From assembly GCF_017348835.2 (NCBI RefSeq), contig NZ_CP071375.1: DNA of 64,000 bases. One strand, given 5' to 3'. This DNA comes from Escherichia coli (lineage in GTDB: Bacteria > Pseudomonadota > Gammaproteobacteria > Enterobacterales > Enterobacteriaceae). Position 1 is the first letter of the stretch, and each line of letters opens with the position of its first letter. The position numbers are program-made. Positions 6,001 through 9,000 of this stretch are shown one piece after another.

Positions 6001-9000
6001 CGGCGCTCACCATAACGGCCAGTCCTCGTTCAGCAATCAATGCTGAAATAGCGGCGAATACGGTCAGGGGAGCGAAGAGCATGACGTAGCCAGTGAGCTT
6101 TAACATGGCATGTGCCAGCGAATCTAAGGCGTGAACGATGGCGCTGCCTTTCTCGCCAATCGCCGTCAGGCTACAGCCGAGGAAAATTGAGAACACCACG
6201 ATTTGCAAAATTTCATTGTGCGCCATGGCATCGACAATGCTGGTGGGGAAAGCATGCGAAATAAATACTTTTAGCGTAAAGGGTTCTGCCGCGACCACTC
6301 CGGTGGTTTCGGCACCGTGTGCAACAAAATTAATTCCTGTACCTGGCATGAAGAAATTTACCGTTATCAAGCCTAAGGCAATTGACAGCAATGAGGCGCA
6401 AATAAATAAAAAGAGTGTTTTAGAAAAAATACGACCAAGGGCTTTAGCATCGCCCATTTTAGCAATACCTACCACCAGGGTAGAAACCACTAACGGAGCG
6501 ATAATCATTTTTATCAGTCGTAAGAAAATCGTCGTGAATATCGATATTTCTTGCGCATAGAGTTTTGCTGTTTCCGGTGAAGCAGTGTTATTGAGCACTA
6601 CGCCGATAATCATTCCAAGTACCAGCGCCAAAAGAATCATCGTGGTTAAACTTATTTTCTTCATTTTTTCCTCCATCAGGTGCACGGCGATAAATCAGAA
6701 TCAGGAGAAGTAGATGCCTGAATAGAGATTCAGGCATCTACCTGCTATTACAACCTTACAAATAGCTGAAGTGTTGAACTGCAATAAGTGACGGGATGTC
6801 AGTTGGCTAAAAGTGTTCGGATTTTTACAAATCGAAACTCATATTTAATAAAGGTGCGTGTTGCTGTGCACCATAGACATCATTGTCACCTACATTCCCG
6901 GAGATAATATCTCGTGGCATGACGATTTTTACTGCGTTAGAAGGATCAAACCAGACAATACGATGAATAAAGTCAGGTCCAACATGATATAAGCGCGCAA
7001 TCAGTTCTGGGGTTAATTGCCCTGATGATTTAACTCGCTCATAGTTTTCTTTGGTTTTAAATAAAATATCTAAAACCAGTTCGTAAGGTCCGGCATTTTT
7101 CGAACGAATGACTTGCGCCAGTGAGACAATTGACTGTTTCATGCCTGAACTCCTTCTGGCGTCACCTGTTCAATATGGAAATCAAAACGCAGAGCGTCGT
7201 TGGCTTCAATCAGGTGATATATGGAAAATTCGTATACCGGCCCGCCCTGGATATCAGAAGGGGAGAACGGGAACGCCAGATTGCCTGCGGTAGCGATGCG
7301 GTTTTCATAGCCGTAGTGCAGCATGGTAGAGCGCACCAGCGAGCAAACGCTATTGGCAATTTCCTGGGTCGGTGCAACTACATCAAGAACAATTCCCAGC
7401 TCATGCCCGGCAGTTTGCATCGGTTCATGGTCTCCCATCACCCCGTTTTTGCCGTACAGGTGGAAATTGATGCGAATGCTGTCATCGTCTAACGACAGGT
7501 TACGCGAAACGCTGGTTTTGACTTCATCGATGATTTTATCGATCCCGGCGATCATGATCGGGTCGCGCGTTCCGGCGATGGTCAGACAGCGGAAGCCCAC
7601 CCGTCGTGCACCTTCCAGTTTCAGGGCATACGGCGTTTCTTCATGCTTAGAACCGCTGACGTACACTTCGCCGTCATTGACCGCTTTAAATGTGCAGCCT
7701 TTCAGGTTCAACACGCCGCCAGGTCCTGGCAGGAAGTAGGGATCGGATTTCTCATACAGTGTGTGTGCAGCTGCTGACGTTTCGGTAAATTTACGCTTCG
7801 GATTAAATGTCTTCAGCGTAAAGCCGTTGTCATCAATGATGCCCATCGCACAGTCAGAGCCTGAGCCGGGCGTTGCAGCGATTGCCGCGCATTCAAGGAT
7901 TTTCCCACAATGCAGCGCCAGACCTTCATCAAAGCCTTGCATGATCGGGAGCGCTGCAAAGCAGGCCGGGTCGTAAGCGCGCCCGCCCAGCACCACTTGC
8001 GCGCCTTCTTTCAGCGCCCGCTGGAAGGGTTCGATGACCATTTGCGCAACGATATACGTACTTTCGTCAATCGCGTCGTGGGTTAACGGCGGGACAAAAT
8101 CCAGCGCCGTGATTTTGCCGTTATCCAGTGCCTGGTGGACGATGGCTTTGTCAACGTCTGCCGGGATCAACGCCATCGAGAACGAGAGGTGCTCTTCCTG
8201 GGCAATCTCATGAATTATTTCTCGGCACCACTCCAGGTGTGGTGCGGCACCAGAACCGCCGGCCGTTCCGATCACCACCGGTATATTATTTTGCACGCCT
8301 GCGGTGATCATATAGCGCAGATCGCGCTTGACTCCTGCGCGATCGGTAAATGGTTTGCCTGCCCCGAGGTAGTGGGGGCCTGGATCGGAAGAGCCTGCAT
8401 CAACGGCGATCAGATCGGGCGATTCTGCCATCGCTTTGCGGAAGCTCTCTTCCGGGAATCCATACCCGAGGATTGCCGTTGGCGATAAGACTTTAAAAGA
8501 ACGAGCCATTTGTTAATCCTTAGCCTGCAACAGCGCGATAGTACGATTCATTTCGTTGAAGACGATATCGAGGCCTTCGTCAAAGCCCATCCCTGGCTTT
8601 ACCAGCATACGCATAGGGCGAGCGGCAAGGGCGACGTGGACACAGGTGCGGGCACTGACATCAGTTTCATTGCAGGTGCCGCCCTGGTACGCTTCCATGC
8701 TGTGGCTGTTGCAGTAAAGAACCGCATCGACGATGTTGTGAATACTGCCCAGATCTGGGGTTTTGATTTGTACCATGTGACAACTGGCGGCATCAGTGAA
8801 ATCAACAATATCCTGGTAGGTGTTACACCATTCATCGGCCACAATTTTCACGCCGGAACCGAGGCGCGTCAGCTCTTTGGTAATCGCGGTCAGCAGGCGA
8901 ATTTGATCGGGCTTGTTACCGGCATCGACCGGTCCTTCAATGTAGAGCGGCAGGCCTTGCGCTTCTTTTTCCAGGCTGGCGATGTATTGCGCACAGCGAA

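What the first reader, a model, noticed from the sequence alone, without database searches (positions are those of the whole stretch)
6710..6741. Perfect 14-bp inverted repeat between the unknown gene pair and the transporter gene
GTAGATGCCTGAAT-agag-ATTCAGGCATCTAC forms a 14-bp perfect stem with a 4-nt loop in a 160-bp intercistronic gap, with no T-run on either strand. It is therefore not a canonical intrinsic terminator. It may be an RNA processing or stability element that differentially expresses operon halves, or a dimeric regulator binding site.
Basis: seen in the sequence. Interest (0 to 1): 0.3.

Follow-up and report, generated by a model that had tools for sequence, protein, structure and literature searches.

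The report
Conserved mRNA hairpin inside glutamate-catabolism operon
The perfect palindrome is real and is E. coli's version of an RNA hairpin that related gut bacteria keep at the same spot inside a glutamate-breakdown operon while changing its sequence, so it is most likely an ordinary mRNA stability or processing element, not a regulator-binding site.

Summary
A perfect 14-bp stem with a 4-nt loop lies at 6710-6741, in the 160-nt spacer between a DUF4387 gene and a GltP-type symporter gene. It is the longest perfect hairpin in the window (chance expectation about 0.002).

The window is E. coli. The genes lie on the minus strand and form the methylaspartate/mesaconate glutamate-catabolism operon: glmS-glmL-glmE-mal-atuA-like-DUF4387 | symporter-fumD-cobO.

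- **One locus only.** The palindrome occurs only here, in the 1,123 of 5,426 complete E. coli genomes that carry the island. It is not a dispersed repeat.
- **Conserved structure.** In 33 other Enterobacteriaceae species a hairpin of different sequence sits at the same place, 45-53 nt before the symporter ATG. Twelve of 15 pairs show compensatory changes and 93% of cells are paired.
- **RNA strand.** G·U outnumbers A·C 52 to 12 on the operon's sense strand. The commonest E. coli variant (316 genomes) is an A-to-G change that gives U·G.
- **Not an operator or terminator.** Loop length varies from 4 to 11 nt, the stem sequence turns over, and the U-tail is not conserved.

The likeliest role is a decay or processing barrier that separates the enzyme half from the transporter half. 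That function is inferred, not shown. Interest is low to moderate.

The parts
6710..6741 (-). Stem-loop 'HP2': 14 perfect pairs with loop CUCU on the mRNA-sense (minus) strand. It can extend to 16 pairs (6708-6743) through two G·U pairs. Predicted dG is -23.7 kcal/mol.
   Evidence: It is homologous to alignment A2 columns 98-112/124-138, where covariation is seen. The covariance model R1 hits window 6698-6757 on the minus strand at 39.9 bits.
6665..6824 (-). 160-nt untranslated spacer inside the operon, between the DUF4387 stop codon and the symporter ATG. It has no credible small ORF and no sigma-70-like promoter on the sense strand.
   Evidence: The RNA fold z-score is -2.79. Spacer length (about 165-180 nt) is conserved in most relatives.
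6670..6674 (-). Shine-Dalgarno sequence GGAGG of the symporter gene, 5 nt before the ATG. The surrounding motif GAUGGAG is invariant in 35 spacers.
6704..6709 (-). UUCUCC immediately 3' of the stem, complementary to the SD region GGAGGA. This is a possible anti-SD and is inferred only. The same CUUCUCC occurs after the hairpin in Citrobacter sedlakii (L035).
   Evidence: Read directly from the sequences. Not supported by covariation. The minimum-free-energy fold pairs the SD with a different upstream segment.
6825..8509 (-). Upstream gene pair: AtuA-like/DUF1446 (7139-8509) and DUF4387 (6825-7142). These are the last genes of the enzyme half of the operon.
   Evidence: PMC4682846.
5384..6664 (-). 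Dicarboxylate/amino acid:cation symporter (GltP-type), the first gene of the distal half. It is followed by fumD (3624-5276) and cobO (3012-3614).
   Evidence: PMC4682846.
2975..3015 (-). Hairpin between cobO and the convergent lysR gene, followed by GTTTTAC on the minus strand. It is the likely end-of-operon terminator and is listed for contrast with HP2.
   Evidence: I3; sequence printed.

Best explanation
The palindrome is the DNA image of a stable stem-loop in the polycistronic mRNA of the methylaspartate/mesaconate glutamate-catabolism operon, which is transcribed from the window's minus strand. Selection acts on the RNA structure, not on the sequence. The most likely function is a barrier to mRNA decay or a processing landmark in the long untranslated spacer. 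After endonucleolytic cleavage in the flanking A/U-rich single-stranded stretches, the hairpin would block 3'-5' exonucleases and so stabilise the upstream enzyme-encoding segment (glmS-glmL-glmE-mal-atuA-like-DUF4387). It might also cap the downstream segment (symporter-fumD-cobO). Either way the two halves of the operon would reach different steady-state levels. Shown here: the hairpin exists, it is confined to a single locus, it is conserved as a structure, and it lies on the sense strand. Inferred: cleavage, exonuclease blocking and the resulting differential expression.
For: (1) The 14-bp perfect stem is real and non-random. (2) A hairpin sits at the same position, 45-53 nt before the symporter ATG, in 35 spacers from Escherichia, Citrobacter, Klebsiella, Enterobacter, Salmonella arizonae and diarizonae, Buttiauxella, Lelliottia, Pluralibacter and Raoultella, with different stem sequences. 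(3) 93.3% of cells are paired, 12 of 15 pairs carry compensatory double changes, none of 500 shuffles reaches any measure, and slid controls give only 20-49% pairing. RNAalifold finds the same helix independently. (4) Strand asymmetry: 52 G·U cells against 12 A·C cells, so pairing is 93% on the sense strand and 85% on the antisense strand. (5) Among E. coli genomes, 610 carry the perfect stem and 316 carry an A-to-G change that makes U·G on the sense RNA (dG -23.0 versus -23.7) but would be a C·A mismatch on the antisense strand (dG -17.7). A second G·U-forming variant was also seen. The pair-breaking variant that could be counted is rare (C-to-G, 11 genomes); a second one (A-to-U) was seen in one sampled genome. 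(6) Stability is kept high everywhere: dG ranges from -17 to -40 kcal/mol with a median of -28.7. (7) It lies inside an operon. No sigma-70-like promoter is found on the sense strand in the spacer of E. coli, Citrobacter or Yersinia, and a separate terminator-like hairpin closes the operon after cobO. (8) Every lineage examined, apart from two outgroup loci (L055, L062) where none was identified, keeps at least one stable hairpin downstream of DUF4387: HP1 only, HP1 plus HP2, or HP2 only. This includes two Escherichia species that lack the symporter gene. That pattern fits a 3'-protective role for the upstream segment. [quoted passage not shown]
Against: There are no transcript-end, half-life or RNase data for this locus, so the function is inferred from anatomy only. 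Yersinia, Morganella and Pseudescherichia have the symporter but no HP2, so HP2 is not indispensable. In one Citrobacter amalonaticus strain (L013) HP2 is degenerate (21.8 bits) with an insertion nearby. Covariation proves that a structure is selected but does not distinguish a decay barrier from a translational, anti-Rho or protein-binding role. Many of the Citrobacter sequences are closely related, which inflates the shuffle statistics, although up to five different pair types occur at single positions.
Confidence: 0.5

Rival explanations
1. Leaky, non-canonical intrinsic terminator or attenuator. The hairpin plus the moderately U-rich tail UUCUCCUGAUUCUGAUUU stops a fraction of RNA polymerases, which lowers transcription of symporter-fumD-cobO.
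For: The E. coli tail scores 2.4, borderline on a d'Aubenton-Carafa-type scale. The first spacer hairpin in Yersinia is terminator-like (10-bp stem plus TTTTTTCT; tail scores 1.6-4.7 in the three species scored). This suggests that forming a 3' end after DUF4387 is an old feature of the spacer.
Against: The consensus scan did not call the 14-bp stem a terminator. If the stem extends by two G·U pairs the tail score drops to 0.87. Orthologous HP2 tails score 0.07-0.84 (ACCCUACAC..., CCCUCCCCCUAC...), so a U-tract is not conserved while the stem is. The 14-16-bp stem at 43% G+C is atypical for terminators.
Confidence: 0.15
2. Part of a cis-acting 5'-leader that controls translation of the symporter gene. 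Long-range pairing would sequester the Shine-Dalgarno sequence, with HP2 as the stable cap of that domain, in the manner of an intercistronic thermometer or riboswitch-like element.
For: The distance from the hairpin to the ATG is conserved at 45-53 nt. Predicted folds in E. coli and several relatives pair the SD region with upstream spacer sequence; the probability that the SD is unpaired is 0.13-0.44 in the species that have HP2. In the Citrobacter group, CCAUUGG is complementary to the invariant CCGAUGG(AG), with 92% of cells paired. In E. coli, UUCUCC just 3' of the stem is complementary to GGAGGA. The Citrobacter-group spacer has near-invariant single-stranded blocks (identity 0.94-1.0, against 0.67 at third codon positions) and a second covarying hairpin.
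Against: The anti-SD helix shows no covariation because both strands are invariant. The minimum-free-energy folds contradict the covariation-supported HP1. Forcing HP2 open does not change the predicted SD accessibility. E. coli lacks the conserved blocks. No Rfam family matches.
Confidence: 0.15
3. DNA operator for a dimeric transcription factor, such as the island's LysR-type regulator, controlling an internal promoter.
For: The dyad symmetry is perfect in the window, and a CCTGA...TCAGG core is shared by most orthologues. A LysR-type regulator is encoded in the island.
Against: The outer stem sequence turns over completely (GTAGATG versus GGCGTGC versus GGAGTGC). The spacing between the arms differs by 3-7 bp between lineages. 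Changes are compensatory and G·U-biased on one strand, which a DNA-binding site would not require. No sense-strand promoter is found nearby. The half-site is absent from the glmS-upstream and lysR-upstream regions, and window-wide matches are at the chance level (28 against 20.7 +/- 4.7).
Confidence: 0.03
4. A REP-like dispersed palindrome, a relic of a mobile element, or a functionless chance palindrome.
For: The + strand reads GTAG...CTAC with an internal GCCTGA, which is reminiscent of REP heads (resemblance from my own knowledge of REP consensus sequences). One strain has an IS1 inserted in the 5' arm.
Against: There is a single locus per genome in 1,123 E. coli genomes and none in island-negative genomes. 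The covariance model finds one copy per locus in 523 kb. The position is orthologous across genera with compensatory evolution. The chance expectation is about 0.002. The GTAG of E. coli aligns with GGCG in relatives, so it is not a conserved head.
Confidence: 0.05

Closest known systems
Protective intercistronic hairpins of differentially decaying operons: malE-malF REP hairpins in E. coli, the puf intercistronic stem-loop of Rhodobacter capsulatus, and papBA (summarised in PMC5927463; Newbury et al. 1987 and Chen et al. 1988 as cited there)
   Same: A very stable stem-loop without a U-tract lies in an untranslated spacer inside an operon. It sits at the boundary between genes likely needed at different levels (soluble enzymes versus a membrane transporter). 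It is conserved among Enterobacteriaceae as a structure.
   Different: It is not a REP copy, because it is single-locus. No decay, cleavage or 3'-end data exist for it. Here the transporter is downstream of six enzyme genes rather than downstream of a binding protein. Most of the protective structures catalogued in PMC5927463 lie inside coding regions, whereas this one is intergenic.
Rho-independent (intrinsic) terminators and leaky internal terminators
   Same: A hairpin on the sense strand at the end of a gene block. In Yersinia the first spacer hairpin fits the canonical pattern.
   Different: The U-tract is absent or weak and is not conserved after HP2. The stem is longer and less G+C-rich in E. 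coli.
CpoB/ybgF intercistronic-region thermometer (Rfam RF02782), which is present elsewhere in this same window at 23899-24037
   Same: A structured RNA in an intercistronic spacer just upstream of a downstream gene's ribosome-binding site in an enterobacterial operon.
   Different: There is no sequence or structure match to RF02782 or any other Rfam family. SD sequestration here is only predicted, not supported by covariation.
REP/BIME elements
   Same: An intergenic palindrome that is transcribed within an operon, with a superficial GTAG...CTAC resemblance.
   Different: It is single-copy. The GTAG is not conserved in orthologues.

Membership tests
Intrinsic (Rho-independent) terminator | G+C-rich stem-loop on the transcribed strand | tested here: met
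   A 14-16-bp stem with dG -23.7 kcal/mol, although only 43% G+C in E. coli.
Intrinsic (Rho-independent) terminator | U-tract immediately 3' of the stem, conserved with the stem | tested here: not met
   The scan's rule of at least 5 T in 8 is not met for the 14-bp stem. The tail score is 2.4, or 0.87 for the extended stem, in E. coli and 0.07-0.84 in orthologues, against 5.1 for T8.
REP/BIME dispersed palindromes | Many copies per genome | tested here: not met
   One locus per genome in 1,123 E. coli genomes. The apparent two places per genome are the palindrome matching both strands. The covariance model finds one hit per locus in 523 kb.
REP/BIME dispersed palindromes | Conserved GTAG/CTAC head next to the palindrome | tested here: inconclusive
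   E. coli has GTAG...CTAC as the outer stem, but it aligns with GGCG...CGCC in relatives. A separate CCCTAC follows the stem in the Citrobacter group and also occurs in Yersinia without any hairpin.
Operator of a dimeric transcription factor (for example a LysR-type box) | Conserved half-site sequence at fixed spacing in orthologous loci | tested here: not met
   The outer stem turns over, the loop is 4 nt against 7-11 nt, and changes are compensatory.
Operator of a dimeric transcription factor (for example a LysR-type box) | Location at a promoter, with the site repeated at other promoters of the regulon | tested here: not met
   No sense-strand promoter-like site in the spacer. No half-site in the regions upstream of glmS or lysR.
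Described RNA families (Rfam 15), including riboswitches and thermometers | Match to a curated covariance model | tested here: not met
   Only chance-level hits (E of 2.4 or more) for the E. coli and Citrobacter spacers. The gathering-threshold scan of the window finds nothing here.
Conserved structured RNA element (generic) | Base pairs maintained by compensatory substitutions across species, on one strand | tested here: met
   12 of 15 pairs have double changes, 93.3% of cells are paired, and 0 of 500 shuffles reach this. G·U to A·C is 52:12.
Protective/processing hairpin of a differentially decaying operon | Stable 3' or 5' transcript ends at the hairpin and different half-lives of the flanking segments | not testable with these tools
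   This needs Term-seq, RACE or rifampicin decay data. None were found in the searchable literature.
RNase III processing site | Cleavage dependent on rnc within a double-stranded stem of roughly two helical turns | not testable with these tools
   The stem is 14-18 bp, which is shorter than classical substrates. No experimental data are available.

The most novel reading that the evidence does not exclude
The whole spacer of about 165-180 nt between DUF4387 and the symporter, and not just the hairpin, could be an undescribed structured cis-regulatory RNA of Enterobacteriaceae. It would consist of covarying hairpin HP1 with the conserved loop GCUGUAUCA, a closing helix GGUUGG/CCAGCC, HP2, and the near-invariant single-stranded blocks AUUCAUGCGGUUGGUCAC and CCCUACA. 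It would gate translation or stability of the symporter-FumD-CobO half of the operon in response to a signal such as a pathway metabolite, temperature or a bound protein. E. coli would carry a reduced version that keeps only HP2 and the ribosome-binding region.
Probability: 0.12. Interest if true: 0.6.

Novelty: new member of a known kind. Interest (0 to 1): 0.3.

Why it matters
The operon lets some pathogenic and commensal Enterobacteriaceae, including O157:H7, convert glutamate via methylaspartate and mesaconate (PMC4682846). Nothing is known about how its ten or so genes are balanced. A conserved RNA hairpin at the enzyme/transporter boundary gives a concrete and cheap target for testing post-transcriptional tuning of a horizontally acquired metabolic island. 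The richer Citrobacter-type spacer is a candidate for a new non-coding RNA family. If it is only a decay barrier, it is one more example of a common mechanism.

Tried and rejected
- **Rfam.** Searches of the E. coli and Citrobacter spacers at permissive E-values gave only chance hits.
- **Literature.** I looked for transcription start, termination or processing data at ECs0757-0760 / Z0890-0892 and in Sakai Term-seq, dRNA-seq and Ribo-seq papers. Nothing usable turned up; supplements were not held or had no entry.
- **Promoter scans.** Scans of the spacers in E. coli, Citrobacter, Yersinia and Escherichia sp. found no sense-strand sigma-70-like site. I checked sigma-54, CRP, FNR and T-N11-A patterns by eye only and found nothing convincing.
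- **Half-site search.** GATGCCTGAAT in the window matches at the chance level and is absent from the operon and lysR promoter regions.
- **Small ORFs.** Only mechanical ORFs occur in the spacer. Loop-length changes that are not multiples of three rule out coding through the hairpin.
- **Anti-SD helix.** CCAUUGG/CCGAUGG is complementary, but both strands are invariant, so covariation is uninformative.
- **Thermodynamic test.** Opening HP2 does not alter the predicted SD accessibility.
- **REP membership.** Rejected on copy number.
- **Searches not run.** They would add more orthologues but would not settle the function.
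Full report
**Observation.** The sequence GTAGATGCCTGAAT-AGAG-ATTCAGGCATCTAC is at window 6710-6741. It is reported as a 14-nt, 100% complementary inverted repeat with 4 nt between the arms (I7). It is the longest perfect hairpin in the 64-kb window. Forty dinucleotide-preserving shuffles gave maxima of 8-12 bp, and the analytic expectation for 14 bp or more is about 0.002. It lies in a 160-nt gap (6665-6824). No run of T follows it on either strand.

**Context.** The 3.3 kb around the site is 100% identical to E. coli strain PE164 and is present in 1,125 of 5,426 complete E. coli genomes. All flanking genes are on the minus strand and form one cluster between sucD and cydA:
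- glmS, glmL, glmE (glutamate mutase)
- methylaspartate ammonia-lyase
- an AtuA-like/DUF1446 gene (7139-8509)
- a DUF4387 gene (6825-7142)
- the 160-nt spacer
- a GltP-type dicarboxylate/amino acid:cation symporter (5384-6664)
- a class I fumarase (3624-5276)
- cobO (3012-3614)

The fumarase is FumD (ECs0757), the mesaconase of the methylaspartate route from glutamate, described in O157:H7 (PMC4682846). The LysR-type gene is at the far end, convergent with cobO. A hairpin followed by GTTTTAC separates the two. The palindrome is therefore internal to a long operon and is read from the minus strand. As RNA it is GUAGAUGCCUGAAU-CUCU-AUUCAGGCAUCUAC, followed by UUCUCCUGAUUCUGAUUUAUCGCCGUGCACCUGAUGGAGGAAAAAAUG.

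**Is it a generic repeat?** No. A sensitive blastn search with the 40-mer against all complete E. coli genomes found it only in 1,123 genomes, essentially those that carry the island, and at one locus each. The median of two places per genome arises because a palindrome matches both strands. It is unique in the window.

**Variation within E. coli.**
- 610 genomes have the perfect stem.
- 316 genomes have an A-to-G change in the 3' arm. This gives a U·G pair on the minus-strand RNA but would give a C·A mismatch on the other strand.
- 11 genomes have a C-to-G change that breaks a pair.
- Sampling six more genomes showed a second G·U-forming change (A to G in the 5' arm) and one A-to-U break.
- The predicted stability of the sense hairpin barely changes with the G·U variants (-23.0 or -23.1 against -23.7 kcal/mol). 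The antisense hairpin would drop to -17.7.
- One strain has an IS1 inserted in the 5' arm.

**Comparison across species.** A scan of one genome per species with the DUF4387 protein returned 58 loci. In 49 of them a symporter orthologue follows, usually after a spacer of about 165-180 nt. The sequences and a 35-sequence alignment (A2) cover Escherichia sp., Citrobacter, Klebsiella, Enterobacter, Salmonella enterica subsp. arizonae and diarizonae, Buttiauxella, Lelliottia, Pluralibacter and Raoultella. All have a hairpin at the position of the E. coli palindrome, 45-53 nt before the ATG, but with other stem sequences. Examples are GGCGUGCGUCUGAGC...GCUCAGGCGCACGCC in the Citrobacter group and GGAGUGCGCC-UGAA-GGCGCACCCUCC in a second Escherichia species.

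**Covariation.** RNAalifold predicts this helix independently. Counting the 15 pairs gives the following:
- 93.3% of 519 cells are paired.
- 12 of 15 pairs carry changes on both sides.
- Up to five pair types occur at one position.
- None of 500 shuffles reaches any of the five measures.
- Sliding the partner by 1-3 columns gives only 20-49% pairing.

G·U cells outnumber A·C cells 52 to 12, so pairing is better on the operon's sense strand (93%) than on the antisense strand (85%). The hairpin is very stable everywhere, from -17 to -40 kcal/mol with a median of -28.7. A covariance model of the hairpin with its flanks finds exactly one sense-strand hit per locus in 523 kb. It finds none in Yersinia, Morganella or Pseudescherichia, nor in two Escherichia species that lack the symporter.

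**What this excludes.**
- *Dimeric-regulator operator.* This is disfavoured. The outer stem turns over completely. The loop is 4 nt in Escherichia and 7-11 nt elsewhere, so any half-sites would move by more than half a helical turn. The substitutions are compensatory and G·U-biased on one strand. The half-site does not recur upstream of glmS or of lysR, and window-wide matches are at the chance level. No sigma-70-like promoter is found on the sense strand in the spacer of E. coli, Citrobacter, Yersinia or Escherichia sp..
- *Canonical terminator.* This is also not supported. The E. coli tail scores 2.4, or 0.87 if two G·U pairs extend the stem, against 5.1 for T8. Orthologous tails score 0.07-0.84. 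The stem is conserved without a U-tract.
- *Known RNA families and coding sequence.* No Rfam family matches. No credible small ORF covers the site, and loop-length differences are not multiples of three.

**What it most likely does.** The anatomy matches the protective hairpins that shape differential decay of polycistronic mRNAs in E. coli and its relatives: malEFG, puf, papBA and the many cases in PMC5927463. The shared features are a very stable, structure-conserved hairpin with no U-tract, in a long untranslated spacer, inside an operon, at the boundary between six enzyme genes and a membrane transporter gene. A/U-rich single-stranded stretches flank the stem on both sides (GCUAUUUGUAAGGUUGUAAUAG upstream, CUGAUUCUGAUUUAUC downstream). 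By eye they contain RN|WUU-like RNase E motifs.

In all lineages examined other than the two outgroup loci L055 and L062, where I did not identify one, at least one stable hairpin follows the DUF4387 gene:
- only a first hairpin (HP1) in Yersinia, Pseudescherichia and Morganella; the Yersinia one looks like a true terminator
- HP1 plus HP2 in the Citrobacter group and Escherichia sp.
- HP2 only in E. coli, where HP1 has decayed
- an unrelated hairpin in two Escherichia species that lack the symporter

That pattern suggests the shared requirement is a structured 3' boundary for the enzyme-encoding segment. I therefore favour a barrier to decay or a processing landmark that uncouples the levels of the two operon halves (confidence about 0.5). 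The existence, strand and conservation of the structure are shown. Cleavage, exonuclease blocking and differential expression are inferred.

**Rivals kept open.**
- A leaky terminator, about 0.15. The E. coli tail is borderline, but this is not conserved.
- A translational leader for the symporter, about 0.15. Predicted folds pair the Shine-Dalgarno region with upstream spacer sequence. In the Citrobacter group CCAUUGG is complementary to the invariant CCGAUGG(AG), with 92% pairing but no covariation because neither strand varies. In E. coli, UUCUCC just after the stem is complementary to GGAGGA.
- An operator (0.03) and a repeat or chance palindrome (0.05), both unlikely.

**A wider point.** In the Citrobacter group the spacer is more than a hairpin.
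- HP1 also covaries: 6 of 9 pairs have double changes.
- A helix GGUUGG/CCAGCC encloses HP2. It is 97% paired, with one-sided changes only.
- Blocks such as CAUGCGGUUGGUCAC, CCCUACA, the HP1 loop GCUGUAUC and the ribosome-binding region are 0.94-1.0 identical, while third codon positions of the flanking genes are only 0.67 identical.

This could be an undescribed structured regulatory RNA. E. coli retains only HP2, a few flanking bases and the ribosome-binding site, so this bears on the finding only indirectly.

**Verdict.** It is a new member of a well-known kind of element, not described in Rfam, and of low-to-moderate interest (0.3). The decisive experiments are mapping of transcript ends and half-lives, plus compensatory stem mutations in an island-positive strain.

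Noticed in passing
L010-L041, L056, L059, about 4316-4490 in locus coordinates (alignment A2 columns 30-181): The Citrobacter/Klebsiella/Enterobacter/Salmonella arizonae spacer carries more than HP2. A second covarying hairpin (HP1) has the conserved loop GCUGUAUCA. A closing helix GGUUGG/CCAGCC encloses HP2. Near-invariant blocks (CAUGCGGUUGGUCAC, CCCUACA) are far more conserved than third codon positions (0.94-1.0 against 0.67). This is a candidate undescribed structured RNA; Rfam has nothing.
   Followed up: partly
L049 4360-4396 (Yersinia alsatica); also L043, L051, L054: In Yersinia the first spacer hairpin is terminator-like (10-bp stem followed by TTTTTTCT in Y. alsatica), and HP2 is absent. 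The motif CCACCCTAC still occurs about 20 nt before the ATG without any hairpin.
   Followed up: partly
L008 and L009, about 4340-4390 (Escherichia sp. E1V33, E. whittamii): These species lack the symporter gene, and DUF4387 is followed after about 268 nt directly by fumD. A different imperfect hairpin (AAAUGUACCUG...CAGGUGCAUUU) sits about 32 nt after the DUF4387 stop codon.
   Followed up: partly
L004 (E. coli strain 100416), locus about 200-290: An IS1B element is inserted inside the 5' arm of the palindrome and replaces the upstream sequence. The DUF4387 side is not seen within the 200-nt flank.
   Followed up: no
L013 about 4440-4560 and L022 about 4320-4510: Insertions of about 115 nt (C. 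amalonaticus S646, between HP2 and the ribosome-binding site) and about 195 nt (K. oxytoca, just after the stop codon) look like ERIC/IRU-type intergenic repeats. That identification is from memory of the consensus and was not tested. In L013, HP2 is also degenerate (covariance-model score 21.8 bits).
   Followed up: no
L006 (contig JAIJJM010000101.1, labelled 'MAG: Collinsella sp.'): This contig is 99% identical to the E. coli locus, including the identical palindrome. It is probably a mis-binned or contaminating E. coli contig in an actinobacterial MAG.
   Followed up: no
L070 (NC_002695.2 846933-848617): The Sakai RefSeq product names look wrong for two genes. ECs_0759 (DUF4387) is called 'acyl-CoA synthetase'. 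ECs_0760 (AtuA-like/DUF1446) is called '3-methylaspartate ammonia-lyase', the same name as the true lyase ECs_0761.
   Followed up: no
window 23899-24037 (+): A strong match to Rfam RF02782, the CpoB/ybgF intercistronic-region RNA thermometer (142 bits). It is a described example of an intercistronic regulatory RNA in the same window.
   Followed up: no
window 24964-25683 (+) and 53375-53491 (+): A cluster of six tRNA genes with an RtT RNA match (25287-25453), and an ALIL pseudoknot match (RF01497), all at Rfam gathering threshold.
   Followed up: no
window 25721-25731 (-): An exact copy of the 11-nt half-site GATGCCTGAAT lies next to the tRNA cluster. It is a single half-site, and window-wide half-site matches (up to 2 mismatches) are at the chance level overall (28 against 20.7 +/- 4.7).
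   Followed up: partly
E. coli genome collection: In one record the whole locus, palindrome included, is on a replicon labelled as a plasmid rather than a chromosome.
   Followed up: no
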